DNA of 64,000 nucleotides, taken from assembly GCA_963707915.1 (NCBI GenBank), contig OY970178.1, forward strand, positions 3,321,599 to 3,385,598, in the 5' to 3' direction. Each line of letters opens with the position of its first letter. Within the stretch, counting starts at the first letter, position 1. The notes under the pieces were generated by a model. That model worked only from the letters and a program-made list of their open reading frames with translations, had not been told where the DNA came from and made no database searches. The translations under genes and the position numbers were made by a program. Below are positions 383 through 38,826 of the stretch, piece by piece. The stretch is from Candidatus Eiseniibacteriota bacterium. Lineage in GTDB: Bacteria > Eisenbacteria > RBG-16-71-46.

Positions 383-390
383 TTCGCTGG

Positions 391-17973: not shown

Positions 17974-17979
17974 TAGAAG

Positions 17980-18858: not shown

Positions 18859-19609
18859 GGTGTGAGCTTGACAGGATCTAGGTCAAGTGATTGGATGTCG
18901 CTGCCGCAATCCGCGCAATCTCGTTTCACTAGGAATGAGCCGAGTCCAGGGCTCCACCAGACGCGCTGCGGCGCGTAGTCCCGCGTGGGCGGGCGGTGTG
19001 TCGTAAAGAGGGGCGGAGCGGCACGGAGGGCGCCAATGCGTGCCCTGGGAGGCGGTAGGGGGAGGGTGGCGGGCCGATAGGCGGGGTGATTCCCCGCCGG
19101 TTCATCCACTAGCGCAGATCGAAGGGCAGGACTCTGCCTCGTTGGCCAGTTGCCAGCGGGGCTATCGGCGTTGGTGTCGGCGGGCTGCCCGCTGGCCGCT
19201 GGGGCCGGGGTGCCCTTCCGGGCGACGGGGTCGGTCGCCCCCTTGGTCTGTTGGTGTCTGGCTGTGCGGTTGGAGCCGGATGGCTGGGCTCTCAGCTGGA
19301 TGGTCGGGCGCACGCGCAGACGGCCATCATGGGGCTGATGTTCCTCCTCGTCGTCATTGGGGGCATGGGACTGCTGGCAGCCGCGTACTTGGCAGTGCGA
19401 GGTGCCTTCCGAAACTCGTCGTATGACCCCGAAGCGGTCCGACTCGCGGACGAGGAGAAGCTAGCGGTCCGCGAGGGTTCTGACGGCGGCTAGGGTGGCG
19501 AGGCTGAGAGGTAGGCGCAGGGGAGGACAGTAGCCAAGACCGTAGCCAAAACCGTAGCCACTCGGCTGCGGGCACTTGCACGGCGGCCCGTAAGTCGTGT
19601 AGAAACAGA

Positions 19610-19651
19610 GGCGGAGAGGTGCTGGAGCGGTTGAACAGGACGGTCTCGAAA
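19610..19651 (+). repeat. 42-bp direct repeat, copy 2: tRNA-Ser(CGA) 5' half (att-like)
   Basis: Identical to 16334-16375. Diverges right after CTCGAAA. Confidence 0.65.
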
Positions 19652-19862
19652 GCCGCTCGGAGATCAATCGCCTCCCAACCTGGGAAGTCCGCCAGCAGCA
19701 CCTATTTGCTTGTGGCCTCAGCGAGTTACGCGCGCTGGGGCCGGTTTGTTTTCATGGCCTGGAGTGGTCACGAAGGGCCACGAGAGGACTTTCACGGGGT
19801 CACAAAGGGGTCACCTTGCGGCCAGGCTTGGGGGGCGGTCATCGACTCCGGTTGTCTGTCAT

Positions 19863-19892
19863 TTGCTGTCATTTGGTGTCGTGTGGTATCAT
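19863..19892 (+). promoter_or_regulatory. Possible sigma70-like promoter giving a leaderless helicase mRNA; tandem 10-mer operator-like repeat just upstream
   Basis: TTGCTG, 18 nt, TATCAT, ending 6 nt before ATG 19899. CTGTCATTTG occurs twice in tandem at 19856-19875. Confidence 0.25.
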
Positions 19893-19898
19893 GGTCCC

Positions 19899-22158: not shown

Positions 22159-23406
22159 ATGGGGCCAATCCTCGTTTTCGACAAGTCGTTCTTGCAGAGC
22201 ATCAATCCTGATGAAGCGGTGTGGCTTGACCACTTCTTCCTGACCAACATCACACCACTGTTCTTCATCGAGACCCTCGCGGATCTTGAGAAGGAGGTGC
22301 GCAAGGGACGTACTCCCGAGCAAGTGGTTGGGAATCTCGCCTACAAGACCCCCGACTTGAACTCGAAACCAAGCGTTCACCACACGCGGTTGTTGAGCGG
22401 CGAACTCAGCGGGCGGGCGCCTGTACCCATGGGCGAGGGACAGATCATCGTGCCGGGTGGGAAGCAGACCGTGCTCGATGGGAAGAGCGGCGTGTTCTTC
22501 GAGCAGTCGCCCGAGGAAGAGGCGCTGAGCCGCTGGCAGAAGGGGCAGTTTCTTGATCTCGAGCGCCAGCAAGCCAAGCAATGGCGCCGCGGCCTCTCGC
22601 TTCTTACTCCCGAGAAACAGCGCGAACTCTTCTCGCCGTGGTTTCAAACAGGGACACCGAATACGCTGGCAGACGTGAAGCTTGCGGCAGACGGGTTCAT
22701 TGACCAATCGGACCAGGAGCGATCCCTCTCGTTTGGCTTGGCACTTGTTGGGGTGAACCCTGCGGGACAAGCCGAAATCCTCGGACGCTGGCGCGCCTCC
22801 GGACGACCGTCAATCGCTGTCTTCGCCCCGTACTTCCGGCATGTGTACGGCGTGGAGCTGTTCTTCTACCTTGGGCTCGCCGCGCGGCTGATCTCCGAGC
22901 GTCGGACAAATCACGTTGACCTTGCCTACCTCTTCTACCTGCCGTTCTGCATGGTCTTCACGTCCTCCGACGACCTGCACGCTGCGACGGTGCCCCTCTT
23001 CCTGCGCGACAACCAGACATTCGTCCCGGGTGCCGAGTTGAAGGCCGACCTCGGAGCACTGGATCGTCACTACAGTGCCTTCCCGGACGAAGCGAAGGCT
23101 CGCGGGTTGTACGAGCTCGCAGCCTGGCCGCCGGTGGATGATGCGTTTCTCGTGTCGAGACTGTGGGACGCCCACATGCGACCCGACTGGAGGGAGATCG
23201 CCGTCAAACCAGAGCCAGCGCCGGATAAGACGCGGGATGCGAAGCTCGTCGAGAGGCTCCGCGACCAATGGGAGGCGGGACGAGCGGCCCCAGAAGCCTC
23301 CTCGGGCAACTCGGGCGATGTCGACTACATGGTGGTCACGCGCAGAGTGGATATGAAGAAGGGAAAGTGGAATCGTTTTCCGCCAGAGGTGAAGCCCGAC
23401 CCCTGA
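22159..23406 (+). CDS. Hypothetical protein, possible split PIN-like nuclease
   Basis: N-terminal 'ILVFDKSFL' plus 'FFIETLADL', and distal 'CMVFTSSDDLH', resemble PIN acidic residues. No other motif recognised. Confidence 0.4.
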   Translation: MGPILVFDKSFLQSINPDEAVWLDHFFLTNITPLFFIETLADLEKEVRKGRTPEQVVGNLAYKTPDLNSKPSVHHTRLLSGELSGRAPVPMGEGQIIVPGGKQTVLDGKSGVFFEQSPEEEALSRWQKGQFLDLERQQAKQWRRGLSLLTPEKQRELFSPWFQTGTPNTLADVKLAADGFIDQSDQERSLSFGLALVGVNPAGQAEILGRWRASGRPSIAVFAPYFRHVYGVELFFYLGLAARLISERRTNHVDLAYLFYLPFCMVFTSSDDLHAATVPLFLRDNQTFVPGAELKADLGALDRHYSAFPDEAKARGLYELAAWPPVDDAFLVSRLWDAHMRPDWREIAVKPEPAPDKTRDAKLVERLRDQWEAGRAAPEASSGNSGDVDYMVVTRRVDMKKGKWNRFPPEVKPDP

Positions 23407-23529
23407 TGCCCGCCGTCGACAACCTTCTGAGAGTGCCACGCTCTCTAGATGATGCCGTGACCTGTTGGTTTGCGCAGCGTAGGCTTCGTCCGGGTGTCTT
23501 GACCTCAGCCCCTCATCGAGGTGGATCCA

Positions 23530-24498
23530 ATGATCTCTGCACTAGATGCAGTGTATCCCGAAGACGGCCTCTGCCGCATCCTCGCGTTGGACGGTGGTGG
23601 GGCGAAGGGCTTCTATACCCTCGGGGTGCTCAAGGAAGTGGAGGGGTTGCTCGGGTGTCATCTCCACAAACGCTTTGATCTCGTCTTCGGGACGAGCACC
23701 GGTGCCATCATCGCCTCCCTGATCGCGCTTGGACACAGCATTGACGAGATCCACGCGTTGTACAAAGCCCACGTTCCTCGCGTCATGGCCGAGCGCTCCC
23801 CCCGGGGTAGGGCAGCGGCCCTCGAGCGCTTGACCAAGGAGGTCTTTGGAACGAAGTCGTTCGAAGACGTCAGGACGGGTGTCGGGGTCATCGCGACGAA
23901 GTGGTCGATCGAAAGACCGATGATCTTCAAGGGAAGCGTTGCGCAAGCCCACGGCCGTAGAGGGACATTCACGCCAGGGTTTGGGGTGACGATCGCCGAC
24001 GCGGTCAAAGCTTCCTGCTCTGCCTATCCGTTCTTCGATCGCACCACCTTGGTGACGTCTTCGGGGGATAGGGTCGAACTCATCGACGGAGGATATTGCG
24101 CGAACAACCCGACGCTCTACGCGATCGCGGATGCGGTTGCCGCGCTGGGGAGAGACACCAAGGACCTGCGGGTTGTGAGCGTGGGGGTGGGAAGTTACCC
24201 CGAGCCAAAGCCGGGATTGAAGATGTGGCTGGCGAAGAAATACCTTGTTAGCGTCCAGCTGCTGCAGAAGACACTCGAGATCAACACGCAATCAATGGAT
24301 CAGCTCCGAGCGATTCTGTTCCGCGAGGTCCCCACTATTCGGATCAGTGACGCATTCGAGCACCCGGAGTTGGCCACGGACCTCTTGGAGCATGACCTCG
24401 CAAAGCTCAACCTCTTGCACCAACGTGGGAGGGAGTCATTTGCGTCGAGAGAAGACCAGCTGAAGGCCTTTCTCCTACCTAGCGGGACGACAGCATGA
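23530..24498 (+). CDS. capV: Patatin-like phospholipase (CBASS CapV-like effector)
   Basis: 'LALDGGGAKG', 'GTSTGAIIA' (GxSxG), 'DGGYCANNP' (DG dyad). A 4-nt ATGA overlap links it to the next gene. Confidence 0.75.
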   Translation: MISALDAVYPEDGLCRILALDGGGAKGFYTLGVLKEVEGLLGCHLHKRFDLVFGTSTGAIIASLIALGHSIDEIHALYKAHVPRVMAERSPRGRAAALERLTKEVFGTKSFEDVRTGVGVIATKWSIERPMIFKGSVAQAHGRRGTFTPGFGVTIADAVKASCSAYPFFDRTTLVTSSGDRVELIDGGYCANNPTLYAIADAVAALGRDTKDLRVVSVGVGSYPEPKPGLKMWLAKKYLVSVQLLQKTLEINTQSMDQLRAILFREVPTIRISDAFEHPELATDLLEHDLAKLNLLHQRGRESFASREDQLKAFLLPSGTTA

Positions 24499-25388
24499 CA
24501 ATCCCAGAAGCGCAGTTTGAAACCTGGGCGCATCAAGGCTCAATCGCACAGTCACGCGACACCTATGCCTCAGTGGGTCGTGTATTGCGCGCGTCGGACA
24601 CCCCGTACTCCGGGAAGGCGTACCGTGTGTTCCTGCAGGGATCTTATGGCAACGACACCAACATCTATGCGGAGAGCGACGTCGACGTCGTGATCTGCCT
24701 GGACGAGTGCTGGGGCAGCGATCTCTCGGAGTTGTCAGGGCCGGAAAAGGCCGCGTACGAGAGCTCTCACGTGACGGCGACGTATTCTCATGTGGACTTC
24801 AAGCGCGATGTGCTGGATGTCCTCAGGGCGCAGTACGATGACGACGTTGAGGCTGGGGACAAGGCCATTGCGATTGCCGCTAACGGCAACCGCAGAAGAT
24901 CGGACGTCATTGTCTCTACGGAGTTCAGGCGCTACAGGCGTTACGTGAACGCCACCGACCAGGACTACGTGACCGGAATCTGCTTCTTCAACAAGTCCGG
25001 AGCGCGCATCGAGAACTACCCCCGGCAGCATTCAGAGAACCTGACACGTAAGCATCAAAGCGCGGGAAATGGGCTGAAGCCAATGATTCGGGCCCTTAAG
25101 AACCTCAGGGGGAGGCTGGTCGACGACGGCGTGATTGAGTCAGATCGTGCGCCGTCCTACTACCTCGAGGGACTGCTGTACAACGTGCCAGACGAACTGT
25201 TTGTCACAAGCCTCCAGCAGACGTTCGTAAACAGCGTCAACTGGCTACAGTCTGAGGCGGACAAGGCGAAGCTCTTGTGCGCGCATGAGTTGTACTATCT
25301 CCTCTGGGATGACTCTCCGACATCGTGGCCAAGAACTCATTGCGACGAGTTTCTTTCGGCCGCGACTGACCTGTGGAACGAGTGGTGA
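24495..25388 (+). CDS. SMODS/CD-NTase-type nucleotidyltransferase (copy 1)
   Basis: 'LQGSYGNDTNIYAESDVDVVICL' (GS...DxD), third acidic 'RRSDVIVSTE', 'ENYPRQHSENL...IRALKNLR'. Confidence 0.7.
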   Translation: MTIPEAQFETWAHQGSIAQSRDTYASVGRVLRASDTPYSGKAYRVFLQGSYGNDTNIYAESDVDVVICLDECWGSDLSELSGPEKAAYESSHVTATYSHVDFKRDVLDVLRAQYDDDVEAGDKAIAIAANGNRRRSDVIVSTEFRRYRRYVNATDQDYVTGICFFNKSGARIENYPRQHSENLTRKHQSAGNGLKPMIRALKNLRGRLVDDGVIESDRAPSYYLEGLLYNVPDELFVTSLQQTFVNSVNWLQSEADKAKLLCAHELYYLLWDDSPTSWPRTHCDEFLSAATDLWNEW

Positions 25389-25424
25389 GCAAGTACTCGG
25401 GCCGGTAGTCTCGGACTTCCGTCA

Positions 25425-25510
25425 TTGTCCGTTTCGATCTTCAAGTCCGGCAGGTAGAAGTCCGTGGTCTCGAAGAGCCAAGTTCGAAGACGGACGCAAG
25501 TGGTCCGCCA
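25425..25510 (-). pseudogene. Relic 0 of a serine-recombinase 3' end
   Basis: Minus-strand 'CVRLRTWLFETTDFYLPDLK' versus the intact 'DDVRTWLKKDKWLPLPRLD'. The 14-nt GAGCCAAGTTCGAA (25475-25488) is identical to relic A. Confidence 0.45.
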
Positions 25511-25827
25511 CTCACAGGAGAGTTTGGGCCAAGCGAATACATGTCGCCCCCGTGGGTTACGACCCGCGGGGGCGATCTTGTGTCTTGGCAGATCTGGGCG
25601 CCTTGGGGAGCGTTCGGGCAGCCGAAGGAACCGCAGAATGGGACAAGAACGGTGACAAGAATCAGAGATCACTTGCGCCGCGATCGACGGCCGTGCGCTA
25701 GGCCGGGTGCCCGGCGTTCGTCGAGGACTCGGGGCATGGGATTCCGGCGGGTGGCGTCTTCTGGTGGTCACGGATGGACACGAGAGAACAGCGAAGGACC
25801 CGTTAGGCCGCCAAAGTAGCAACCATT

Positions 25828-25850
25828 TGGTAGCCAGAATCCGGCTACCA
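25828..25850. promoter_or_regulatory. Perfect palindrome, candidate operator of the LexA-like repressor
   Basis: TGGTAGCC-N7-GGCTACCA, located 36 nt upstream of a TTGACG -35 element. Confidence 0.35.
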
Positions 25851-25885
25851 GAGCAGCGGTCTAGGCGACCGCGTGGCCGCAACCC

Positions 25886-25913
25886 TTGACGAGCCCGCTG
25901 GGGGGTGTATGCT
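25886..25913 (+). promoter_or_regulatory. Sigma70-like promoter of the LexA-CBASS-Ubl operon
   Basis: TTGACG, 16 nt, TATGCT. ATG 25924 lies about 10 nt downstream (short or no leader). Confidence 0.3.
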
Positions 25914-25923
25914 GCTGTATGCG

Positions 25924-26556
25924 ATGACTCTCCGACCTCTCACCCCCAAGGAATTCCAAGCTCTCCGGCACATCCGGAACTGCCTGGCACATGGCCAACC
26001 CGCGCCCACCGTTCGCGAGCTAAAGGACCTGCTGGAGTACCGGTCACCACGCTCCGCGGCGGTAATTCTGGAGCGGCTTGCTGCCCATGGGTTCATCCGC
26101 CGCCGTCCGGATGGCCAGCTCCAGCTGCTCCGCGATCTGCCGGAGGGAGCCGCCCATGCGCGTACCGTGCCCGTGCCGCTCGTGGGCGCGATCGCCTGCG
26201 GCGCGCCGCTTCTGGCCGAACAGAACATCGAGGCGATGATTCCGGTCTCGCTCTCTCTCGCCCGTCCGCCGCACAACTACTTCATGCTTCGCGCGAAAGG
26301 CAACTCTATGAACCGCGCGGGCATCCAGGATGGTGATCTCGTGCTCGTCCGACAGCAGCCAACTGCCCAGGACGGCGACCGGGTGGTCGCCCTGATCGAT
26401 GACGAGGCTACGGTCAAGGTGCTGCGACGAGCGGGCGATGCGATTGCTCTCGAACCGCGTTCAACGAACAAGCGGCACGAGCCCATCCTCGTGACTACGG
26501 ATTTTCAGGTCCAGGGCGTTGTCGTCGGAACTATTCGTGCCCCGCGTATGAGGTAA
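25924..26556 (+). CDS. LexA-like repressor (wHTH + S24 autopeptidase)
   Basis: 'LTPKEFQALRHIRN...PTVRELKDLL', 'VPLVGAIACGAPL' (cleavage-site region, Cys-Gly in place of Ala-Gly), 'GNSM' Ser and 'EATVKVL' Lys. The start was chosen downstream of the predicted promoter; the track ORF starts at 25873. Confidence 0.75.
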   Translation: MTLRPLTPKEFQALRHIRNCLAHGQPAPTVRELKDLLEYRSPRSAAVILERLAAHGFIRRRPDGQLQLLRDLPEGAAHARTVPVPLVGAIACGAPLLAEQNIEAMIPVSLSLARPPHNYFMLRAKGNSMNRAGIQDGDLVLVRQQPTAQDGDRVVALIDDEATVKVLRRAGDAIALEPRSTNKRHEPILVTTDFQVQGVVVGTIRAPRMR

Positions 26557-26565
26557 TCTTGCACC

Positions 26566-27438
26566 ATGGCCATTTCCGAACAACAACTCGCGAGCTGGGC
26601 CAAGGGGCCGGGTGCCACCGAGCAGGAGCGTTGCGACACGACTGTGCGCCGCATCACTGAGGCCCTGCGTCCGTTCTACGGTAGCCGAGTGACCATCTTC
26701 CCGCAGGGCTCGTATCGGAACCGGACGAACGTGCGGCAGGACAGTGATGTAGACGTGGCGGTGGTCGAGAGCTCCGCCTACATTGGCGATACGTCGCGGA
26801 TGGGACCTGAGGCTTTGGCGCGGTGGAACGCGATGTCTCCAGCCAGCTACACATTCGCGCAGTTGAAGGCGGACGTGCACCAACAACTCACCGCCGCCTT
26901 CGGGCCACGTGTTGAACGCCGTAATAAGTGCATCTTCGTACCTGAGACCGCCAGCGGCGTTGACGGTGACGTTGTCCCCGCCTTCGAGTACCGGCTGTTC
27001 GACTACAACGGCTACAAGACGGCCAGCGGCATCGCTTTCTACGCTGACCGGGGCGGATTGTTCACCAGCTTTCCGCAGCAGCACTACGATAACGGGGTGG
27101 CGAAGAACGACCGGACGCAGCGGATGTACAAGCGAGCGGTGCGCATCCTCAAGAATGCTCGGAACACCCTCGTAGAGAACGGGCAGCTGGGGGACACGTT
27201 CGCGCCGTCATTCTTCCTTGAATGCCTTACGTACAACGCGGCCGACCGAGTGTTCTTGGCAAGCACCTATACCCAAAGCATCAAGCAGGTGATCGAGGAC
27301 CTTTGGGAAGCAACCAAGCCCAGTCGCAGCGGGAGCCTCGTGGAAGTTAGCGAAGTGAAGCCGCTCTTCACGGCCGAGCACACCGCGGACGAGGCACGCA
27401 CGTTCCTGCGAACCGCCTACACGTTCATCGGGTTCTGA
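26566..27438 (+). CDS. SMODS/CD-NTase-type nucleotidyltransferase (copy 2)
   Basis: 'FPQGSYRNRTNVRQDSDVDVAVVE', 'GVDGDVVPAFEY', 'SFPQQHYDNGVAKN...VRILKNARN'. Confidence 0.7.
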   Translation: MAISEQQLASWAKGPGATEQERCDTTVRRITEALRPFYGSRVTIFPQGSYRNRTNVRQDSDVDVAVVESSAYIGDTSRMGPEALARWNAMSPASYTFAQLKADVHQQLTAAFGPRVERRNKCIFVPETASGVDGDVVPAFEYRLFDYNGYKTASGIAFYADRGGLFTSFPQQHYDNGVAKNDRTQRMYKRAVRILKNARNTLVENGQLGDTFAPSFFLECLTYNAADRVFLASTYTQSIKQVIEDLWEATKPSRSGSLVEVSEVKPLFTAEHTADEARTFLRTAYTFIGF

Positions 27439-27440
27439 GC

Positions 27441-28070
27441 ATGGGCATTCAACTCCATCGCGCAAGCCATTTCGTCCTCTTCATCTTAGTGCTGCCGCTC
27501 CTCAGCTTGGCGTTGGCTTGGGAATGCAGCCGAGTCGTGGCGATGGTGGTTCCCCCTGGCTGGGCATTTGCCGTCGATTCGGTCGGCACGATCGGCGCCT
27601 ACGGTCTTCTGTTCAAGGCCTTTGACCTCTGGCTTTGGCGGTGGCCGGCCTTTCGCTCCCTGGGCATCGTTCAGCCCCCTCTCATGGCAGGCCGGTGGGT
27701 CGGTTCATTGCGTTCCTCCCATGACAATCATGAGACCCGCCACGAGGCCGTGGTGGAAGTACGCCAGAGCTTCACTTCTGTGCGCGTGGCCATGTACTTC
27801 GCGGGCTCGCGATCGGCCAGCCTGATCGCGGGGTTTGCGCAGGAGGCGGATGGTGGCGTGGCGCTCCACTACGAGTACCAGAACGTGCCGTCCGTTGATG
27901 CTTCGCGGACCATGCACATTCACTACGGCACGGCCACGCTCCAGTGCGTCCCGGGACGGCCGCGGATGGAGGGGCACTACTACAACTGGGGACGTGACGA
28001 GAGAGGGCACTACGGAGTGATGGAGTTCTCCTTCGAGAGCGCTAAACTACTGGGCCGGTTCTCCCAGTGA
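27441..28070 (+). CDS. 2TM + beta-rich effector (Cap15 / S-2TM-beta-like)
   Basis: Two N-terminal hydrophobic helices ('FVLFILVLPLLSLALAW', 'VGTIGAYGLLFKAFDLWLW'), then a beta-strand-rich 130-aa domain. It starts 2 nt after the NTase stop. Confidence 0.55.
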   Translation: MGIQLHRASHFVLFILVLPLLSLALAWECSRVVAMVVPPGWAFAVDSVGTIGAYGLLFKAFDLWLWRWPAFRSLGIVQPPLMAGRWVGSLRSSHDNHETRHEAVVEVRQSFTSVRVAMYFAGSRSASLIAGFAQEADGGVALHYEYQNVPSVDASRTMHIHYGTATLQCVPGRPRMEGHYYNWGRDERGHYGVMEFSFESAKLLGRFSQ

Positions 28071-28124
28071 CGCTCACGAACTGAGTCCACAACGCATTAA
28101 CTAACTAAGAGAAGGAGATAACGT

Positions 28125-28382
28125 ATGGACACGCAGGACAAAGTAAAGACCGTCACGATCATCGTGGAAGGCACTCCGCACGAGTGGCCCAAGGGTGAGA
28201 TCACCTACGCGGAGGTCGTCACTCTTGAAGTGCCGGACTACGCGCAGCACCCGGAGATCACGTACTCGGTGACCTACAAGCGCGGGCACGGCGAGAAGCC
28301 CGAAGGGATTCTCGTGAAAGGCGGCTCGGTCAAGGTAAAGGACGGGATGATCTTCCGTGTTTCAGAAACTGGTCAGTCATAA
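28125..28382 (+). CDS. Ubiquitin-like beta-grasp protein (multiubiquitin-domain type)
   Basis: AAGGAG RBS. 'VTIIVEGTPHEWPKGEITYAEVVTL' and 'GSVKVKDGMIFRVSETGQS' resemble the multiubiquitin family found with prokaryotic E1/E2. Confidence 0.55.
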   Translation: MDTQDKVKTVTIIVEGTPHEWPKGEITYAEVVTLEVPDYAQHPEITYSVTYKRGHGEKPEGILVKGGSVKVKDGMIFRVSETGQS

Positions 28383-29544
28383 CGACGACTTGGGTCGTTT
28401 GGTCGACAAGGGTTATGCCGTCGGCTTCGACCCGGGGCTTCTGATTGTTCGTGATATCCCGTACCTGGATGACCAGAAACGACTGCAGATTGGTGCGATT
28501 GTCGCGAAGCTGGTTCTCATCGACGACGACCGAGTCAGCCAGGACGATCACCAGATCTACTTCGCTGGCTCTGCCCCTTGCGACGTCAACGGCTCGGCGA
28601 TCCCCAATCTCGCTGGCGGCTCCGCCAGCATCCCGATGAGCGACGCAAACAAGGACGTGGTCGTTCAGCGGTCGTTCTCTAACAAGCCTCGTGCCACGGG
28701 GAAGTTCGACAACTTCTTCGACAAGATCGAGAGCTACGTAGCGATCATTTCGGGTCCAGCCATGGAGCTGTACCCCGATGCGACTCCCTTTACGTTCCAC
28801 GTCGTGACGACCTATCCCGGGTCGGTATTCAAGTTCCACGACACCCTTACAAGCAGAGCTGAAATCGGAGATCTGTCCGGGAGGTTCAAGGACGACATCA
28901 TCGCGGTCATTGGACTTGGTGGCACCGGCGCGTACCTGCTGGATCTTCTGACGAAGACGCAGGTGCGCGAGATCCGCGCGTTCGACCACGACCACTTCTA
29001 CGTGCATAACGCCTTCCGGTCTCCAGGGCGACTTCAATCAGGAGAACTCGGAAGGCTGAAAGCGGACGTGTACCGGGACCGCTACGACTCGTTTCGAACC
29101 GGGCTCTCGATCGAGAGGAGACTGATTGACGCCTCCTCGGTGGACGCGTTGGACGGCGTGACCTTCGCGTTCGTGTGCGTCGACAAGGGCTCGTCGCGGG
29201 CGGGCGTATTCGATGCCCTTCTTTCCAAGCGCATCCCGTTCATTGACGTCGGGATGGGCCTGAAACGCAGAGACGGCAGCCTGAACGGAATGCTGCGCGT
29301 CACCTACTTCTCGTCGGAGGATGGTGGGCAGGTGCGCGCGAAGGGACTCGCTGAACTGGCCGACACGCCGGACGACCTCTATCGAACCAACATCCAGACC
29401 AGCGAGTTGAACGCGCTGAACGCTGCCTTGGCCGTCGTGAAGTTCAAGAAGCTCCGAGGCTTCTACTTCGAGGAAACGCCCTACTACCATCTTCTCCACG
29501 ACGTTGGAGACTCCACGATGGTCGGGGAATCGGAGCTGACATGA
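28357..29544 (+). CDS. E2-like domain fused to a ThiF/E1 adenylation domain (6E/Bub-type)
   Basis: N-terminal 'HQIYFAGSAPC' E2-like His..Cys. C-terminal Rossmann 'VIGLGGTGAYLLDLL', 'FDHDHFYVHNAFR' and 'FVCVDKGSSR'. Overlaps the Ubl gene by 26 nt. GTG start is uncertain. Confidence 0.6.
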   Translation: MFQKLVSHNDDLGRLVDKGYAVGFDPGLLIVRDIPYLDDQKRLQIGAIVAKLVLIDDDRVSQDDHQIYFAGSAPCDVNGSAIPNLAGGSASIPMSDANKDVVVQRSFSNKPRATGKFDNFFDKIESYVAIISGPAMELYPDATPFTFHVVTTYPGSVFKFHDTLTSRAEIGDLSGRFKDDIIAVIGLGGTGAYLLDLLTKTQVREIRAFDHDHFYVHNAFRSPGRLQSGELGRLKADVYRDRYDSFRTGLSIERRLIDASSVDALDGVTFAFVCVDKGSSRAGVFDALLSKRIPFIDVGMGLKRRDGSLNGMLRVTYFSSEDGGQVRAKGLAELADTPDDLYRTNIQTSELNALNAALAVVKFKKLRGFYFEETPYYHLLHDVGDSTMVGESELT

Positions 29545-29942
29545 GGTTCAGGCTCCAGCGAGTTGAGTACATGCCCAAGACCCTGGAGCCGGGGGTCCTG
29601 TACGTCTCAGAAGCTTTCGGCACAGCAGCGCACCTCTGCGCCTGCGGTTGCGGCTCCAAGATCAGGACACCACTCGGCCCCACTGAGTGGCACGTCGAGG
29701 TTACGAAGCGGGGACCAAGCCTGTATCCCTCCGTCGGGAACTGGCAGAAGCCCTGTCAGTCGCACTACTGGATTCGCGAGGGCAACGTGCGGTGGGCAGC
29801 GAAATGGACATCGGAGGAGATTGCCACGGGTCGCAGGCACGAGGAGGAACGCCGACACGCGTACTACGACTCCGGTCGTCCAGCGCCCGGGAATATCCTG
29901 GCGAGATTCTGGTGCTGGCTGAAGCGTCTGCTTGCTCGCTGA
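29541..29942 (+). CDS. DUF6527-like protein (candidate Ubl protease of Bub-type operons)
   Basis: 'LYVSEAFGTAAHLCACGCGSKIRTPL...YPSVGNWQKPCQSHYWIREGNVRW'. ATGA overlap with the E1 gene. Confidence 0.5.
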   Translation: MRFRLQRVEYMPKTLEPGVLYVSEAFGTAAHLCACGCGSKIRTPLGPTEWHVEVTKRGPSLYPSVGNWQKPCQSHYWIREGNVRWAAKWTSEEIATGRRHEEERRHAYYDSGRPAPGNILARFWCWLKRLLAR

Positions 29943-29986
29943 CCCAGCTTGTCCACAGAAGGTGCCACTCTAGTGTCGTACCCCCT

Positions 29987-30295
29987 CTAGGCAGCTTCGC
30001 TGCTTCGTGGCACACTGACTTCACCCTTGAGCCGGTCGAGCTTCGGCAGCGGAATCCACGCGTGTTTCTTGAGCCAAGTTCGAACGTCGTCCCTCATGGC
30101 GCACCAGCGTCGTTTTGGTGCATCCACCCCCACGAAAAGTGGATAACGAGCAGACCGACCGCCAATCAAGGCGGTTTTGTTGTTTGCGGTAGGGGGGTGG
30201 ACGTGACAACAGAGACGCGAAACGGTGAGTTATACCCAGAAGCGAGGACGTTCGAACTCGCGGCAAGAGTTCGAAGCGACTACTTGACCAGCCCC
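29987..30295 (-). pseudogene. Relic A of a serine-recombinase 3' end
   Basis: Minus strand 'QVVASN...' and 'WCAMRDDVRTWLKKHAWIPLPKLDRLKGE' parallel the intact 'QAVASNF...WCALRDDVRTWLKKDKWLPLPRLDRLVES'. It is interrupted by a stop and frameshifts. A 21-nt stretch is identical: 30074-30094 = 32087-32107. Confidence 0.7.
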
Positions 30296-30759: not shown

Positions 30760-30987
30760 ATGACGGCCATGGAACATGACCAACGTTTTGCTCTGGGGCT
30801 GACCCAGGCTGAGGTGGATCGACTGCGCGACATTATCCATCGGACTCGTGGCGTCACGTTATCGGAGCAAGAAGCGTGGGTGTGTGCAATCCGGCTTCTC
30901 AGTCTCGGACTGACGACTCTGAAAGCGACCGCGCCGAAGGAAGACATCCACAAGGATGAGACATGCGTGGTGCGTCCGCCCCTCTAG
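30760..30987 (+). CDS. Small hypothetical protein, paralogue of 33628-33834
   Basis: 'QRFALGLTQAEVDRLRDIIHRTRGVTLSEQEAWVCAIRLLSLGLTTLKAT' versus 'QRFALGLTEAEVDRLRDILRRTRGLELTREEAWAKAIQLLSLGWTILQAT'. Confidence 0.5.
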   Translation: MTAMEHDQRFALGLTQAEVDRLRDIIHRTRGVTLSEQEAWVCAIRLLSLGLTTLKATAPKEDIHKDETCVVRPPL

Positions 30988-31110
30988 GCAGCAACGCCTT
31001 TTCGTGGCAAACTATCTTCGCTCTTCAAACGATCAAGCTTGGGCAGCGGAAACCATGGAGTTTTCTTGAGCCAGGTTCGAACGTCCTCCACGATGGAGCA
31101 CCAAGAACGA
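30984..31110 (-). pseudogene. Relic B of a serine-recombinase 3' end
   Basis: 'WCSIVEDVRTWLKKTPWFPLPKLDRLKSE...AA*'. Core GAGCCAGGTTCGAACGTCC at 31068-31086. Confidence 0.65.
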
Positions 31111-31169: not shown

Positions 31170-32033
31170 ATGAGACACAAGTTTCCAGACAACTTTGTAA
31201 CTATTGGCCATTTTGGCTTAGAGCAGCATTACTCAAAACATGCTCCACACGACATTCTTACAAAGTTACGCCATACATTAGGTTCCCTGATTGGATCTGA
31301 AGGAGACGTGGTGTATGTTTTTATCCTCATAAGAAAGCTTCTAGAGTTAGATAAACATAAACGAGTCTTTCCGACGTTGTCGCTGATATGTGATTGGATA
31401 GCACATGTGCGGCTCGATAGAAATAGCACTGGTTACAAAATCATCGAGAATATAGATCGGGAACTCTATTTCAAATACGCCGTGCTTGATAAACGACCGT
31501 ATGATCGGAATAGGACAAAAGCACAGGAGCGGCATATAGAACGTCAACTTGCGGGCTTATGGACATTGCGTGGCGAGTTGAGATTCTTCTTACGCCATTA
31601 TCATCTCCCGATTACGATTGTAAATAAAACCCCATCATGGAACCGATTACGTCGTTTTCTGTTTAATGCTCTCGCGAATAGTCCCCTCACAGTTCAAACA
31701 GCTGACGATCTATTAGTAATAAAAAGCATCTCATTCACTTCTGTTTGGCACGAAGCTCAACCCCAATCATCCAGGGCAAGAAATCTATTTAACGATCCGC
31801 CATACCCCAGATGTAGAATTCTAGTTAAGGATGGGATAATGCTGCCAGGAACTGAGCATATGAATCCAGAAGATGAGCAGATTATAGAGGTCTCATTAAA
31901 GACTGTAGACATTCGCGACTTTATTTCCGAGGAGGAGTTTGTTAAACTTCAAAAGACGATGAAGGATCTTCCAGAACATTTCTTCAAAGACGATCCCAAA
32001 ACTACCGGAACCACCCGAACCAAATCATCTTAG
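31170..32033 (+). CDS. Orphan hypothetical protein in an AT-rich (about 40% GC) cassette
   Basis: 287-aa ORF with Lys/Ile/Phe-rich composition that differs sharply from its neighbours. Its stop overlaps the recombinase stop. No motif recognised. Confidence 0.55.
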   Translation: MRHKFPDNFVTIGHFGLEQHYSKHAPHDILTKLRHTLGSLIGSEGDVVYVFILIRKLLELDKHKRVFPTLSLICDWIAHVRLDRNSTGYKIIENIDRELYFKYAVLDKRPYDRNRTKAQERHIERQLAGLWTLRGELRFFLRHYHLPITIVNKTPSWNRLRRFLFNALANSPLTVQTADDLLVIKSISFTSVWHEAQPQSSRARNLFNDPPYPRCRILVKDGIMLPGTEHMNPEDEQIIEVSLKTVDIRDFISEEEFVKLQKTMKDLPEHFFKDDPKTTGTTRTKSS

Positions 32034-33589
32034 CTTTCAACGAGACGATCCAACCGAGGTAGTGGCAACCACTTATCTTTCTTTAACCAAGTTCGAACGT
32101 CGTCCCTTAAGGCGCACCAATTGCTAATGAGCCCTTGTCCTTCGATGAAGGAGAAGGGTTCGTTGGCTTTGTAGAGCGGTTCCTTGCCTTCGACCGCGAA
32201 GTTCGAAGCGACGGCCTGGACAATTTCCCGTCGTTGAACTCCGACCCCGCGCTCGAAGGCCGCCGCGCAGCGGTTCGTGAACTGGAAGAGCTCGGTCGCG
32301 CGCTGGAGGTACTCCTCCGGCTCGGTCGGCGGAACCTCGAGCTGCAGCTTGAGCTTTGCCTGTCGCTCCAAGATCTCAAGCCTTCGCTTCTCGAAGAGGT
32401 CCTCGTCTACCTGCCCGCGCAGCCGAAGCGTGAGCAGCGTTTCGCCCTCACGCAGGGACGCGCCGAGGGCCTCCTGGAGCGAGCGGTGTGAGGCTGTGTC
32501 GGTCACGGTCTCCGCCTCCAAAGTGTGCTTCAGGTTCTCCGTCACCCATCCGACCACTTCCTCCGGCACGGCCACGGCATGCAGGGTCTTCTGGATCGCC
32601 GTCTCGAAGTCCGGCTCCGGAATGCAGGTCGCATGCGGACAGGGCGTGCTTCTCCCAAGGCCATGACAGCGGTAGTACACGTAGGTTCGACCTGACTGCT
32701 TGCGGTGCTGCTCGCCGGTCAGAAGTCCGCCACACTTGCAACGCAGTAGCCCGCCGTAGGGGAACTCGTGACGCGCCGGGCGGGCGCGCCCTGGCCGACC
32801 AAGGATACCGGCCGCACGCTCGAACTCCGCCGGGGTGACCATCGGCTCATGGCCGCCGCGGTAGCTCTCACCGCTGCGCAGCTGGATGAGCCCCATGTAG
32901 TAGGGATTCTGGAACATCCGGTAGAGCATCGTGATGCACATCGGCCGGCCGCCCAGTCGCGCCGTCTTGCGCGTGCGGAAGCCCCACTCCTCGGTTGCCA
33001 GCTTGAGGATCTGCTTGGGGCGGAGGCTATCGGTGAGCACGAGGTCCCACATCTTGCGCACGAGCGTGAACCGCTCGGGGTCTTTCACGACGGTCTTGGT
33101 CGCATGGTCCTCGATGTACCCCAGGGGCGGGCGGAAGTTCGGCCAGCCGCGCTGGAACCGCGCACGGTTGCCGCGCCGCACGTTTTGCCGCAGATCGTCG
33201 ATGAACTTGGTGGCGATGCCGAGCTCGAAGTTGCCCATGAAGCGGTCATTGCCGTCAGCGGTGTACGTCCGATCCGAGGTGATGACGGTGAGCTTGTGGT
33301 CGGCCAGCGCTTGCAGGACCCGGCCGGTGTCGGCGTGGTTGCGCGCCAGCCGGTCGAGCTTCCAGCACAGCACGGTCGCGATCTCGCCCTGGGACACGCG
33401 GCGCATCAGTTGATCGAAGACCACGCGGCCCGGAGCTTTAGCCGAGCGCGACTCGGAGAGGATCTCCGCGACCTGGTGCCCATGGCGCAGCGCCAGGAGT
33501 TTGAGCTCTTGGACTTGGGAGTCGATGGAGAGGACCTGCCGATCCTCGGATTCGCTGGATTTCCTAGCGTAGATGACACATTGCGGCAT
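32030..33589 (-). CDS. Large serine recombinase
   Basis: 'CVIYARKSSESEDRQVLSIDSQ' (catalytic Ser), 'LCWKLDRLARN', recombinase domain, Zn-ribbon 'LRCKCGG...YYRCHG', coiled-coil tail. Confidence 0.9.
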   Translation of the reverse strand: MPQCVIYARKSSESEDRQVLSIDSQVQELKLLALRHGHQVAEILSESRSAKAPGRVVFDQLMRRVSQGEIATVLCWKLDRLARNHADTGRVLQALADHKLTVITSDRTYTADGNDRFMGNFELGIATKFIDDLRQNVRRGNRARFQRGWPNFRPPLGYIEDHATKTVVKDPERFTLVRKMWDLVLTDSLRPKQILKLATEEWGFRTRKTARLGGRPMCITMLYRMFQNPYYMGLIQLRSGESYRGGHEPMVTPAEFERAAGILGRPGRARPARHEFPYGGLLRCKCGGLLTGEQHRKQSGRTYVYYRCHGLGRSTPCPHATCIPEPDFETAIQKTLHAVAVPEEVVGWVTENLKHTLEAETVTDTASHRSLQEALGASLREGETLLTLRLRGQVDEDLFEKRRLEILERQAKLKLQLEVPPTEPEEYLQRATELFQFTNRCAAAFERGVGVQRREIVQAVASNFAVEGKEPLYKANEPFSFIEGQGLISNWCALRDDVRTWLKKDKWLPLPRLDRLVES

Positions 33590-33610: not shown

Positions 33611-33655
33611 TCAAGTTCGAAACGCAGTCAAGAGGGAGGACCTTCGAACTCGCGG
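33611..33655 (-). repeat. Relic D: collapsed recombinase-3'-end-like sequence just upstream of the intact recombinase start
   Basis: TCAAGTTCGAAACG (33611-33624) resembles the core CCAAGTTCGAACG. 33636-33655 matches 30244-30263 at 19 of 20 positions (GAGGAC[C/G]TTCGAACTCGCGG). Confidence 0.5.
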
Positions 33656-33834
33656 GGTTTCCTTGAAGAGGTGGCCTGGAGGATGGTCCAGCCGAGGGAG
33701 AGAAGTTGAATCGCCTTGGCCCACGCCTCCTCGCGCGTGAGCTCCAGCCCGCGCGTGCGCCGCAAGATGTCGCGGAGGCGGTCCACCTCCGCTTCGGTCA
33801 GGCCAAGCGCGAAGCGTTGCGTTCGAGCATCCAT
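33628..33834 (-). CDS. Small hypothetical protein, paralogue of 30760-30987
   Basis: ATG at 33834 ('MDARTQRFALGL...'). The C-terminal 'PREFEGPPS' is encoded by relic D sequence. Confidence 0.5.
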   Translation of the reverse strand: MDARTQRFALGLTEAEVDRLRDILRRTRGLELTREEAWAKAIQLLSLGWTILQATSSRKPREFEGPPS

Positions 33835-33998
33835 GCAACCATGATCGCGCAGGAGTAGCGACCGGCGTAGGGGGGAGGACGTCCACAGGGCGAGCTTCGC
33901 TGTGCATAGCGACAATCGAATCCCTCTTCCACAGACATGCACAGTTTGCGCACCTCCACCCCCCTACAACGATTCCCTGGCAGGACTATCGTGGAAGC

Positions 33999-38123: not shown

Positions 38124-38326
38124 CGATGCCACCTCGGCCGCAACAAGCCAACCCCGTAGGCCTCGGGGGCAGCAACCTCGATCACCTTGTTCGACGCATG
38201 CGGTGTGCGGTACGGTATGCAGTTGCCGTTGAGGGAAATGACTGGGGCGCGGCGACTTCGCTGCAAGACGCCAGGTTCGTCCGAGCAATCGGACCCCCAG
38301 CCTAGACTGCGGAACGCAAGCAAGAC

Positions 38327-38719
38327 TCACTCTAAGTACGTGATCTCTCCCTCTTTGTAGCCAGGGGCGAGCACGGTGAAGAAGCACAAATCCGAATCGC
38401 CTAGATTTCGGATGCTCAGCGCGTCACCAGATTTCACATAGATAAAGACTGGATGCTCTGGATCAGCAGTGAATGGGCCGCTCACTGAAGTCGCGGTCCT
38501 TACCTCGAACTGGCCACCGAAAAGGAAGAGGACTTCGTCGCCGCTATTGGGTCTATTCTGAAAGTGGTGACTTTGTTGCTCTCTCGGTCGAACCCGAGCA
38601 AAGACAGCTGTCGCATTAGGCGTATCACTCAGAATTCTACCGTGGAGGTTCTCCTCCTGAAAGAACTCCTCGGGTCGCTCGGTGACTCTGATGATTTGTG
38701 TTTCGATCATTTCGCTCAT
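38327..38719 (-). CDS. Cupin-fold protein
   Basis: 130 aa, 'HHFQNRPNSGDEVLFLFGGQFEV...IYVKSGDALSIRN'. Confidence 0.5.
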   Translation of the reverse strand: MSEMIETQIIRVTERPEEFFQEENLHGRILSDTPNATAVFARVRPREQQSHHFQNRPNSGDEVLFLFGGQFEVRTATSVSGPFTADPEHPVFIYVKSGDALSIRNLGDSDLCFFTVLAPGYKEGEITYLE

Positions 38720-38826
38720 ATAGCGCCCACCGGGTTATTGGCTAAAGTGGCCTGTACAGGAGAAGGCTAGCACAAACGCTCTCGCGCCGCCACTCGGCAA
38801 TCACGGTCAGAGGAGGATGACAGCTT

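What the first reader, a model, noticed from the sequence alone, without database searches (positions are those of the whole stretch)
25828..29942. Single operon fusing a LexA-like switch, a CD-NTase/Cap15-like CBASS core and a Ubl + E2-E1 + DUF6527 (Bub/6E-type) conjugation module
Six genes are packed with gaps of 9, 2 and 54 nt and overlaps of 26 and 4 nt. In order they are an S24 LexA-like repressor, a SMODS/CD-NTase, a 2TM beta-rich effector, an 85-aa beta-grasp Ubl, an E2-ThiF fusion and a DUF6527-like protein.

Canonical type II CBASS uses Cap2 (E2-E1) plus Cap3 (JAB) and no free Ubl; there the CD-NTase itself is conjugated. Here the accessory module has the composition of the separately described Bub/6E ubiquitination-like operons: a free Ubl, and a DUF6527-type putative protease instead of JAB. 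That points to either a new CBASS regulatory variant or two systems welded into one transcription unit.

The LexA-like gene has GNSM and TVK catalytic motifs, with Cys-Gly at the cleavage position. A perfect TGGTAGCC-N7-GGCTACCA palindrome lies upstream. Together these would give a one-protein DNA-damage trigger, analogous to CapH/CapP.
Basis: partly seen in the sequence, partly recalled or inferred. Interest (0 to 1): 0.85.

Follow-up and report, generated by a model that had tools for sequence, protein, structure and literature searches.

The report
LexA-headed CBASS plus Bub defence cassette
Six tightly packed genes place two normally separate anti-phage modules, a small cyclic-nucleotide alarm system (CBASS) and a bacterial ubiquitin-like tagging system (Bub), behind one LexA-type DNA-damage switch. 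Comparison with about 170 related loci shows a lineage-specific splice of known parts, not a new kind of system, but the LexA-type switch recurs in front of many different defence cargos.

Summary
All six genes, their spacings and their family assignments are confirmed. They are a LexA-family S24 repressor, a clade-E CD-NTase, a Cap15 effector, and a complete Type II Bub module (BubA Ubl, BubBD E2-E1, BubE DUF6527 protease) with all published catalytic residues.

Bub is a self-contained, highly conserved three-gene unit:
- 78-80 of 80 related loci keep the same order and overlap.
- Most of these are headed by CapH/CapP.
- A CD-NTase lies within 10 kb in only 4 of 80.

None of 85 loci fetched through the closest CD-NTase relatives carries Bub, apart from one 87%-identical metagenomic contig. 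The locus is therefore two systems welded together, not a new CBASS type.

The conserved element is a TTGACG-N16-TATGCT promoter with a tandem GTATGC repeat. It abuts a leaderless ATG at 25924.

The most interesting result goes beyond the finding. This LexA clade, with an invariant Cys-Gly cleavage site, heads defence cargo in all 12 sampled loci: CBASS-Cap15, CBASS-Cap5, TIR-caspase, TIR-8xMP, and in one locus an uncharacterised protein. These often sit in the cargo slot of serine-recombinase elements. I found no description of this in the literature I could search.

The parts
25543..25576 (+). Strong terminator-like hairpin (15-bp stem followed by a T-rich tail). It closes the upstream patatin-CdnE CBASS operon and marks the left limit of the unit.
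   Evidence: I1.
25828..25850 (.). It is real but not conserved, and it lies 36 bp upstream of the -35 hexamer.
   Evidence: I2. It is absent from L081. The chance of one as good is 0.13.
25886..25913 (+). Promoter-like TTGACG-N16-TATGCT. The -35 hexamer sits at a fixed distance from the LexA-like ATG in every sampled member of the clade.
25907..25922 (+). Tandem GTATGC-N4-GTATGC overlapping the -10 hexamer and the predicted transcription start. This is the candidate operator.
   Evidence: The extended 18-nt form, TGTATGCTGNTGTATGCG at 25906-25923, occurs once in the window against 0.04 expected. The core motif occurs 9 times in 2.14 Mb of fetched loci, 7 of them immediately before a LexA-like ATG.
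25924..26556 (+). LexA-family repressor (wHTH plus S24 autoprotease), 210 aa, apparently leaderless. The Cys92-Gly93 cleavage site, Ser128 and Lys165 are invariant in its clade.
   Evidence: Start codon.
26566..27438 (+). Clade-E CD-NTase (CdnE). The G48-S49, D61, D63 and D135 catalytic signature is conserved.
27441..28070 (+). Cap15-type effector: two TM helices plus a cyclic-dinucleotide-binding beta-barrel.
28125..28382 (+). BubA, a single-beta-grasp Ubl with a conserved TGQS C-terminal tail. A strong AAGGAG ribosome-binding site precedes it in the 54-nt spacer.
28357..29544 (+). BubBD, an E2 (DUF6791)-E1 (ThiF) fusion. Ser106, Arg221 and Tyr342 are invariant.
   Evidence: Residue roles come from PMC11601596.
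29541..29942 (+). BubE, a DUF6527 serine protease. The C33/C35/C37/C72 zinc site and the S64/H75 dyad are conserved, and there is an amphipathic C-terminal extension.
   Evidence: Roles come from PMC11601596.
29982..30106 (-). Remnant of the 3' end of a serine-recombinase gene. It is copy 1 of 3 and starts 39-40 nt after the BubE stop, which marks the right edge of the cargo slot.
   Evidence: (D1, D2) and the translations.
30157..30176 (+). First terminator-like hairpin downstream of BubE on the + strand.

Best explanation
The locus is a DNA-damage-inducible defence cassette inside a defence island. The island runs from about 16 to 45 kb at roughly 60% GC, in a host of roughly 70% GC. The cassette fills the cargo slot of a decayed large-serine-recombinase mobile element.

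**Regulation (inferred).** A LexA-family repressor sits at the head of the cassette. It is probably made from a leaderless transcript. It is inferred to bind the tandem GTATGC element that overlaps its own -10 hexamer and transcription start, keeping itself and the five downstream genes at low level. DNA damage or phage replication would generate RecA-ssDNA filaments. These would stimulate self-cleavage at Cys92-Gly93 by the Ser128/Lys165 dyad and de-repress the unit.

**Cargo.** The cargo consists of two complete modules that are normally autonomous.
1. A minimal type I CBASS. CdnE makes a cyclic dinucleotide on sensing infection. Cap15 binds it and disrupts the inner membrane, giving abortive infection.
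2. A Type II Bub pathway. BubBD adenylates BubA and passes it through Tyr342 and Ser106 oxyesters to target lysines. BubE deconjugates.

**How the two came together.** They sit in one probable transcription unit because a Bub unit without its usual CapH/CapP regulator came to lie directly after cap15 in this lineage. Bub thereby borrows the LexA-type switch. Nothing indicates that Bub regulates this CBASS.

**Shown here:** gene content, catalytic residues, conservation patterns and the promoter/operator motif.

**Inferred:** repression, RecA dependence, co-transcription and all biochemical activities. The activities are taken from characterised homologues.
For: **Components.** establish the six gene families.

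**Bub is autonomous.**
- In 80 species-representative loci with BubBD at 58-70% identity, BubA is present in 78 and BubE in 80. The order is always the same and the overlap is 23 nt.
- S106, Y342 and R221 are invariant. S106 and Y342 carry the same numbers as the E. coli BubBD catalytic residues; R221 is read as the counterpart of its adenylation arginine R219.
- BubE keeps its C4 zinc site and Ser/His dyad.
- CapP lies upstream in 44 of 78 loci, with CapH-like HTH genes alongside. The window has neither.

**CBASS is autonomous.**
- Loci for CD-NTase relatives at 56-60% identity carry Cdn+Cap15 without Bub.
- None of 80 metagenome loci with a CD-NTase at 35-46% identity has Bub.

**The link is lineage-specific.**
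- Only L081 repeats the order. It is 87% identical in DNA over 3.1 kb and has the same 54-nt spacer.
- A CD-NTase lies within 10 kb of Bub in 4 of 80 loci, with varied order, strand and CBASS type.

**LexA clade as a defence-operon head.**
- 12 of 12 sampled loci have defence-type cargo directly downstream.
- C92-G93, S128 and K165 are invariant.
- The -35 hexamer, -10 hexamer and repeat are conserved and abut the ATG, in otherwise unrelated flanks.

**One transcription unit.**
- No terminator-like site lies in the cap15-bubA spacer. The only + strand matches between 25576 and 30157 are three weak intragenic hairpins of 5-7 pairs (27590, 28423, 29202), and the scan's total of 8 is not far above the 4.3 expected from shuffles.
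- GC3 is uniform at 0.73-0.78 across the six genes.

**Mobile-element setting.**
- A recombinase 3'-end remnant starts 39-40 nt after bubE.
- Homologous recombinases sit convergently just after the cargo in L168, L176 and the P0311 locus.
Against: - No transcription, binding or cleavage data exist.
- The promoter consensus scan is not significant on its own: 1 site found against 0.9 expected. The case for the promoter rests on conservation.
- The candidate operator is a direct repeat, whereas LexA dimers classically bind inverted repeats. A second operator class occurs in some clade members.
- The conserved sequence lies near the presumed end of a mobile element, so it could partly reflect a recombination site.
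- A second, independent co-directional Bub-CBASS operon (L017) leaves room for a functional link.
- The CD-NTase screen of the Bub loci used six query sequences and could miss other clades.
Confidence: 0.72

Rival explanations
1. Functional integration. Bub acts as a regulatory or effector arm of this CBASS, analogous to Cap2/Cap3 in type II CBASS. BubA might be conjugated to CdnE, to Cap15 or to a phage trigger. That would make this a new CBASS subtype and give Bub a biological role.
For: - The arrangement is co-directional with a 54-nt spacer, no predicted terminator in the spacer and a strong ribosome-binding site.
- It is maintained across 13% DNA divergence in L081.
- An independent composite exists in L017: capP/capH, then Bub, then Cap5-CD-NTase-E2, all on one strand.
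- Bub alone has not been shown to protect against phage (PMC13373217).
Against: - 76 of 80 Bub loci have no detectable CD-NTase within 10 kb.
- None of the 85 loci found through other CD-NTase relatives has Bub.
- In the few co-occurrences, gene order, strand and CBASS effector type all differ.
- BubBD matches Cap2 models only through its Rossmann core (E about 1e-4).
- CdnE ends in ...FIGF.
Confidence: 0.12
2. Adjacent but transcriptionally independent. Bub has its own promoter within the end of cap15 or in the 54-nt spacer. The LexA-like protein then controls only itself and the CBASS pair.
For: - The 54-nt spacer is the only real gap in the cluster.
- Bub is elsewhere an independent unit with its own upstream regulator.
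- Consensus scans cannot exclude non-canonical promoters.
Against: - No promoter-like or terminator-like site was found in the spacer.
- No regulator gene accompanies Bub here, unlike at least 44 of 78 related loci.
- The spacer is conserved in length in L081.
Confidence: 0.12
3. The LexA-like protein is chiefly the mobile element's own SOS-responsive repressor, in the manner of SetR or CI. It would time excision or transfer, and the defence genes would be passengers inserted behind it, not its evolved targets.
For: - Clade members sit at the edge of serine-recombinase elements.
- S24 repressors classically control prophage and ICE induction.
Against: - In all 12 loci the gene directly downstream, separated by 10 nt or less or overlapping, is cargo, not a recombination or transfer gene.
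- The recombinase is convergent, not downstream in the same unit.
- Some clade loci have no recombinase nearby (L087, L173, L180).
Confidence: 0.15

Closest known systems
Type II Bub (6E.2/DUF6527) operons: BubA, BubBD and BubE (Ye et al., PMC11601596; Gong et al., PMC11601603)
   Same: - Same three genes in the same order, with the bubA/bubBD overlap.
- E2 Ser106 and E1 Tyr342 carry the same numbers as the E. coli BubBD catalytic residues; Arg221 is the likely counterpart of its adenylation Arg219.
- BubE has the C4 zinc site and the Ser-His dyad.
- There is no JAB peptidase.
- The locus lies in a mobile element or defence locus.
   Different: - None of the published regulator sets (CapW, CapH+CapP, CapK+CapS) lies upstream.
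- Instead the unit sits 54 nt behind a CBASS effector gene, in a LexA-headed operon.
- BubA is the single-beta-grasp form.
Type I CBASS with a Cap15 effector (CdnE + Cap15; PDB 7n34, 6e0m)
   Same: - A two-gene core of a clade-E CD-NTase followed by a 2TM beta-barrel effector.
- The catalytic GS...DxD...D signature is present.
- The same pair occurs without accessories in relatives.
   Different: - It is preceded by a co-transcribed LexA-family repressor and followed by Bub.
- The small DUF2188 gene found between the regulator and cdnE in several relatives is missing here.
Type II CBASS (Cap2 E1-E2 plus Cap3 JAB)
   Same: A ubiquitin-like conjugation enzyme with E2 and E1 domains is encoded next to a CD-NTase.
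   Different: - There is a free Ubl.
- Catalysis is by Ser/Tyr oxyester, not by Cys.
- A DUF6527 protease takes the place of JAB.
- There is no evidence that the CD-NTase is the substrate.
- The module is not conserved with the cyclase.
CapH+CapP, CapW/BrxR and CapK+CapS: DNA-damage-responsive regulators of defence operons
   Same: - It sits at the head of diverse defence operons.
- It is expected to respond to DNA damage.
- It is modular with respect to cargo.
   Different: - It is a single polypeptide that combines DNA binding with a self-cleaving S24 protease.
- It presumably needs host RecA-ssDNA, rather than a dedicated metalloprotease, WYL domain or kinase.
LexA, UmuD, and the SetR/CI repressors of ICEs and prophages
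   Same: - Full-length alignment to E. coli LexA at 2.4e-26, passing the TIGR00498 cut-off.
- The Ser-Lys dyad is present.
- The Cys-Gly cleavage site matches that of UmuD (from general knowledge).
   Different: - It is encoded on a mobile defence cassette, not at the host SOS locus.
- Its clade is 57-86% identical across hosts named as different phyla (Eisenbacteria, Planctomycetota).
- The operator candidate is not a known SOS box.

Membership tests
Type II Bub operon | A free Ubl (BubA) with a ubiquitin-like beta-grasp (Multi_ubiq) domain | tested here: met
   PF14452 at 2e-17. It aligns to the third beta-grasp of E. coli ZDHYS365 Ubl3, PDB 9cd2, at 2.6e-06. It is 61-86% identical to BubA in 78 loci.
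Type II Bub operon | An E2-E1 fusion (BubBD) with a conserved E2 serine, an E1 crossover-loop tyrosine and an adenylation arginine, and no catalytic cysteines | tested here: met
   DUF6791 plus ThiF. S106, Y342 and R221 are invariant in 26 sequences; S106 and Y342 are the published E. coli residues, and R221 is read as the counterpart of R219. The E1 domain matches Citrobacter BubCD, PDB 9eav.
Type II Bub operon | A DUF6527 protein (BubE) with a C4 zinc finger and a Ser-His dyad | tested here: met
   PF20137 at 1.6e-24. C33, C35, C37, C72, S64 and H75 are at least 97% conserved across 81 sequences.
Type II Bub operon | Ubl-target conjugation activity | not testable with these tools
   This needs biochemistry.
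Type I CBASS (Cap15 effector) | A CD-NTase with an intact active site | tested here: met
   PADLOC cyclase at 1.2e-82. PDB 6e0m (CdnE) at 1.7e-64. G48, S49, D61, D63 and D135 are invariant.
Type I CBASS (Cap15 effector) | An adjacent nucleotide-activated effector and no Cap2/Cap3 or Cap6-8 accessory genes | tested here: met
   Cap15_CD_rec at 3.5e-22 and the 2TM effector model at 2.8e-53. PDB 7n34. No JAB, HORMA or TRIP13 hits appear in the cluster.
Type II CBASS | Cap2 (a cysteine-dependent E1-E2) and Cap3 (a JAB deconjugase) conserved with the cyclase | tested here: not met
   BubBD hits the PADLOC E1-E2 models only at about 1e-4, and only over the Rossmann core. There is no JAB. The module is absent from all other relatives of this cyclase.
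LexA family (S24 self-cleaving repressors) | An N-terminal LexA-type wHTH, a cleavage-site (Ala/Cys)-Gly, and a Ser-Lys dyad | tested here: met
   The TIGR00498 score is 154 bits against a cut-off of 111.
LexA family (S24 self-cleaving repressors) | RecA-stimulated self-cleavage and operator binding | not testable with these tools
   Only a conserved candidate operator can be offered.
CapH+CapP regulator pair | An HTH_3 repressor plus an M78/IrrE metallopeptidase upstream of the operon | tested here: not met
   There is no capH or capP hit in the window cluster. They are present in 44 of 78 other Bub loci.

The most novel reading that the evidence does not exclude
Bub and CBASS are functionally coupled here. 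BubA conjugation, switched on together with CdnE and Cap15 by the LexA-type repressor, would tune or complement cyclic-nucleotide signalling. Two independent co-directional composites, the window lineage and L017, would then be the first natural context revealing what Bub pathways are for. Their biological role is still unknown in the literature held here (PMC13373217, June 2026).
Probability: 0.1. Interest if true: 0.8.

Novelty: new variant of a known kind. Interest (0 to 1): 0.5.

Why it matters
Every component belongs to a described family, so the locus does not define a new system. It matters in two other ways.

1. **A likely additional class of defence-operon regulator.** The LexA-family clade has a Cys-Gly cleavage site and a conserved leaderless promoter/operator. 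It heads CBASS-Cap15, CBASS-Cap5, TIR-caspase and TIR-membrane-protein cassettes, and one uncharacterised cargo, in hosts named as different phyla. These cassettes often sit in the cargo slot of serine-recombinase elements. [quoted passage not shown] I found no description of it in the searchable literature.

2. **A compact test bed for Bub.** Bub pathways have defined biochemistry but no demonstrated biological role. Here a natural 4-kb operon places Bub behind an inducible switch, next to a CBASS whose activity is easy to read out. It can be used to ask whether Bub contributes to phage defence alone or together with CBASS.

Tried and rejected
Rejected. It is not conserved in L081, and about 13% of simulated regions contain one as good.
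- **GCGGTC-N5-GACCGC (25856-25872) as operator.** It is conserved only between the window and L081, which share 87% of their DNA anyway. It is absent from the other clade loci.
- **GTG 25873 or ATG 25909 as the LexA-like start.** Rejected in favour of ATG 25924. The distant clade members L087, L170 and L176 start there, and the -10 hexamer overlaps ATG 25909.
- **A first tblastn screen with window proteins only.** It under-counted CBASS near Bub, finding 1-2 of 80 loci. A wider panel of six CD-NTase queries and PADLOC scans raised this to 4 of 80.
- **A fixed-spacing motif search.** It found nothing because the spacing was mis-specified. A regular-expression search replaced it.
- **The LexA-like protein against plasmids by tblastn.** No match at 1e-30.
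- **A viral-contig scan with the LexA clade alignment.** Only 3 of 80 hits belong to the clade. The rest are generic phage S24 repressors.
- **Rfam over the whole window.** Nothing was found. There are also no tRNA genes that could mark an integration site.
- **Literature searches.** Searches for CBASS with LexA-like, S24 or autocleavage, for Bub with CBASS, and for Multiubiquitin with SMODS found no prior description.
- **The 'QS' tail of BubA as a propeptide exposing Gly.** Not adopted. The E. coli Type II Ubl also lacks a C-terminal Gly, yet it is conjugated in vitro.
- **Structure prediction.** Not run. Profile and PDB sequence matches were already decisive.

Full report
**1. The observation**

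Profile searches confirm every assignment:
- Peptidase_S24 (1.4e-29) plus LexA_DNA_bind, above NCBI's lexA equivalog cut-off
- PADLOC oligonucleotide cyclase (1.2e-82)
- Cap15_CD_rec (3.5e-22) and the PADLOC 2TM effector (2.8e-53)
- Multi_ubiq (2e-17)
- DUF6791 (1e-43) plus ThiF
- DUF6527 (1.6e-24)

Sequence matches to solved structures agree:
- E. coli LexA over its full length. Cys-Gly sits at the Ala84-Gly85 position, and the Ser and Lys of the dyad are retained.
- Em-CdnE, 6e0m, at 1.7e-64.
- The Cap15 beta-barrel, 7n34.
- The third beta-grasp of the E. coli Type II Bub Ubl, 9cd2.
- The E1 domain of Citrobacter BubCD, 9eav.

The palindrome TGGTAGCC-N7-GGCTACCA lies at 25828-25850.

**2. 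The accessory module is a canonical Type II Bub operon**

Ye et al. (PMC11601596) define Type II Bub as BubA (Ubl), BubBD (E2-E1 fusion) and BubE (DUF6527). BubE is a Ser-His protease with a C4 zinc site. Catalysis runs through an E2 serine (S106 in E. coli BubBD) and an E1 tyrosine (Y342), not through cysteines.

In an alignment of 26 homologues, S106, Y342 and R221 are invariant. S106 and Y342 carry the same residue numbers as in E. coli; R221 is read as the counterpart of the E. coli adenylation arginine R219. BubE C33, C35, C37, C72, S64 and H75 are at least 97% conserved.

BubBD has more than 6,700 homologues at E <= 1e-10. In 80 species-representative genome loci with BubBD at 58-70% identity, BubA is present in 78 and BubE in 80. 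The order is always the same and bubA overlaps bubBD by 23 nt. So the Bub part is an ordinary member of a known family. The GTG start at 28357, with its 26-nt overlap, is supported by the conserved N-terminus MFQKLVSHNDD.

**3. Is the CBASS-Bub fusion conserved? No**

*From the Bub side.* A panel of six diverse CD-NTase queries plus PADLOC scans finds a cyclase within 10 kb in 4 of 80 loci:
- L003: Cdn+Cap15, convergent, 2.9 kb downstream.
- L017: Cap5-CD-NTase-E2, co-directional, about 200 nt after bubE.
- L032: CD-NTase+4TM, co-directional, 1.4 kb downstream.
- L061: 6.5 kb upstream, on the opposite strand.

Clustering the neighbours of the 78 loci gives regulators as the recurrent partners. 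These are CapP (M78; PADLOC capP 4e-36) in 44 loci, CapH-like HTH genes, and a few CapK/CapS. This matches the published association. The locus of the near-closest BubBD homologue (71% identity) lies next to Wadjet, not CBASS.

*From the CBASS side.* The closest CD-NTase relatives give the following:
- L081 (86% amino-acid identity, 87% DNA identity over 3.1 kb) repeats LexA-Cdn-Cap15-BubA-BubBD, with the same 54-nt spacer.
- The P0125 locus (60%) has LexA-Cdn-Cap15, then an AriA/OLD-like ATPase.
- The P0123 locus (60%) has LexA-DUF2188-Cdn-Cap15, then integrases.
- The P0127 locus (59%) has DUF2188-Cdn-Cap15.
- The P0128 locus (56%) has Cdn-Cap15 alone.

None of 80 metagenome loci with a cyclase at 35-46% identity has Bub.

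The juxtaposition is therefore confined to one lineage. Where Bub and CBASS do meet elsewhere, the order, strand and effector type differ.

**4. One transcription unit?**

- A 15-bp-stem terminator-like hairpin at 25543-25576 closes the upstream patatin-CdnE operon.
- The next + strand terminator-like site outside a gene is at 30157-30176, after bubE. None lies in the cap15-bubA spacer; the only + strand matches in between are three weak intragenic hairpins of 5-7 pairs.
- The spacer carries a strong AAGGAG ribosome-binding site.
- GC3 is uniform at 0.73-0.78 across the six genes.
- Unlike most relatives, Bub has no regulator of its own here.

Co-transcription is thus likely but remains an inference.

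**5. The switch**

A perfect 8-bp-arm inverted repeat turns up in 13% of simulated regions.

What is conserved is TTGACG-N15-17-(T)GTATGC-N4-GTATGC-G-ATG. It appears across clade members whose flanks are otherwise unrelated and whose cargo differs. In the window it occupies 25886-25923.

The GTATRC-N3-5-GTATRC motif occurs nine times in 2.14 Mb of fetched loci. Seven of those sit directly before a LexA-like ATG. The extended 18-nt form, TGTATGCTGNTGTATGCG, occurs once in the window against 0.04 expected. A second operator class (TTGACG-N15-TWGTACA...TGTCCAATG) is seen in L170, L173 and L176.

The fixed distance from the -35 hexamer to the ATG, with a -10 hexamer ending about 10 nt before the ATG, implies a leaderless or nearly leaderless mRNA. 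It places the true start at ATG 25924 (210 aa). The distant members L087, L170 and L176 begin at the equivalent codon.

I infer that the repeat overlapping the -10 hexamer and the transcription start is the operator. Because it is a direct repeat and lies near a mobile-element edge, this needs testing.

**6. The LexA clade is a general head of defence cassettes**

Homologues at 49-86% identity, with invariant C92-G93, S128 and K165, were examined in 12 distinct loci. In every one, the genes directly downstream on the same strand, separated by 10 nt or less or overlapping, are cargo genes, defence-type in eleven loci and uncharacterised in one:
- CdnE+Cap15, with or without DUF2188, in six loci.
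- Cap5 (HNH-SAVED), followed in L168 by a CD-NTase and an E2, in two loci (L168, L178).
- TIR plus caspase-like C14 plus TIR in two loci (L170, L176).
- TIR plus the 8xMP membrane protein in one locus (L180).
- DUF2188 plus an uncharacterised 667-aa protein in one locus (L171).

More distant S24 repressors lie divergently upstream of related cyclases in six further metagenome loci.

In L168, L176 and the P0311 locus, a large serine recombinase lies convergently just after the cargo. The window's recombinase (32030-33589, minus strand) is 47% identical over its full length to that of L168. The window also holds three copies of the recombinase 3' end, at 29982-30106, 30979-31103 and 32042-32119. 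The first begins 39-40 nt after the bubE stop. The LexA-CBASS-Bub block therefore fills one cargo slot of a now-decayed element, in a tandem array of related elements.

Searches of the available literature found no description of LexA- or S24-type regulators dedicated to CBASS or other defence operons, nor of a CBASS-Bub operon. Absence from that library is not proof of novelty.

**7. Mechanism, with status**

*Shown by sequence:* intact catalytic residues in all six proteins, the conserved promoter/operator motif, and the operon-like layout.

*From established knowledge of the families:*
- LexA-type self-cleavage on RecA-ssDNA.
- CdnE cyclic-dinucleotide synthesis.
- Cap15 membrane disruption.
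- Bub conjugation through oxyester intermediates, and BubE deconjugation (PMC11601596).

*Inferred here:* the repressor holds the whole unit off until DNA damage or phage replication triggers cleavage. Bub has swapped its usual CapH/CapP control for this switch by insertion behind cap15. The two modules then act in parallel.

**8. Verdict**

The components are known kinds. The composite is a lineage-specific mosaic within a defence island. The island spans about 16-45 kb, with GC falling from about 70% to about 60%.

It exposes a recurrent LexA-family regulator of defence cargo. Together with L017, it also offers a natural Bub+CBASS operon in which the unknown role of Bub could be tested.

Interest 0.5. 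Novelty: new variant of a known kind.

Noticed in passing
window 22159-25388 (+): A second, independent CBASS lies immediately upstream. It consists of a patatin phospholipase effector (23521-24498; PADLOC 1e-161) and another CdnE-type cyclase (24495-25388; 4.5e-122). A 415-aa ORF with no family hit (22159-23406) precedes them, and a strong terminator at 25543-25576 follows.
   Followed up: partly
window 29982-30106, 30979-31103, 32042-32119: There are three copies, 76-78% identical, of the last 78-125 nt of the serine-recombinase gene at about 1-kb spacing. The small ORF at 30760-30987 is 67% identical to the product of 33628-33942, next to the intact recombinase. This looks like tandem remnants of related integrative elements, each with its own cargo.
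   Followed up: partly
window 31170-32033 (+): A 287-aa ORF at 42% GC, against about 60% for the island and about 70% for the host. It has no Pfam, PADLOC or NCBIfam hit and occupies the cargo position next to the intact recombinase. It may be an uncharacterised defence gene.
   Followed up: partly
L168, L170, L171, L173, L176, L178, L180, L087: Close homologues of the LexA-like protein (49-79% identity, Cys-Gly cleavage site) head CBASS-Cap5, TIR-caspase, TIR-8xMP and unknown cargos. All share a conserved -35/-10/repeat element abutting a leaderless ATG. This may be an undescribed family of defence-operon regulators.
   Followed up: partly
L017 7846-14996: An independent composite on one strand. 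capP and capH lie divergently upstream, followed by a PDC-S16 small protein, BubA-BubBD-BubE, and then Cap5-CD-NTase-E2. No terminator is predicted between Bub and CBASS. The order is the reverse of the window's and the CBASS type is different.
   Followed up: partly
window 28371-28382; BubA homologues in L001-L080: BubA ends in TGQS in 77 of 78 homologues. The tail is encoded inside the overlap with the bubBD start (MFQKLVSHN), so both reading frames are constrained. Whether the Ser carboxylate is used directly or the tail is trimmed is unknown.
   Followed up: partly
P0123, P0127, P0311 loci; L171, L173: A 78-aa DUF2188 gene is frequently inserted between the LexA-like gene and the cyclase or other cargo in relatives. 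It is absent from the window and from L081. Its role is unknown.
   Followed up: no
L081 1-135 compared with window 25049-25801: The close relative L081 lacks window segments 25126-25550 and 25611-25801. This removes the end of the upstream cdnE gene and most of the intergenic region, so the upstream CBASS is degraded there.
   Followed up: partly
window 16657-21917 and 36684-42798: Other island cargo:
- an AriA/PtuA-like ABC ATPase (16657-17973) with a 292-aa partner that has no hits
- an HTH_17-ResIII helicase (19710-21917)
- a radical-SAM/B12-binding protein (36684-38123)
- a mad2-like protein (38827-39654)
- a NACHT-like 785-aa protein (40441-42798)
   Followed up: partly
window 1-16000 compared with 16000-45000: GC drops from about 0.70-0.78 to about 0.57-0.65 across the island, and falls to 0.42 at 31-32 kb. 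No tRNA gene or Rfam family occurs anywhere in the window.
   Followed up: yes
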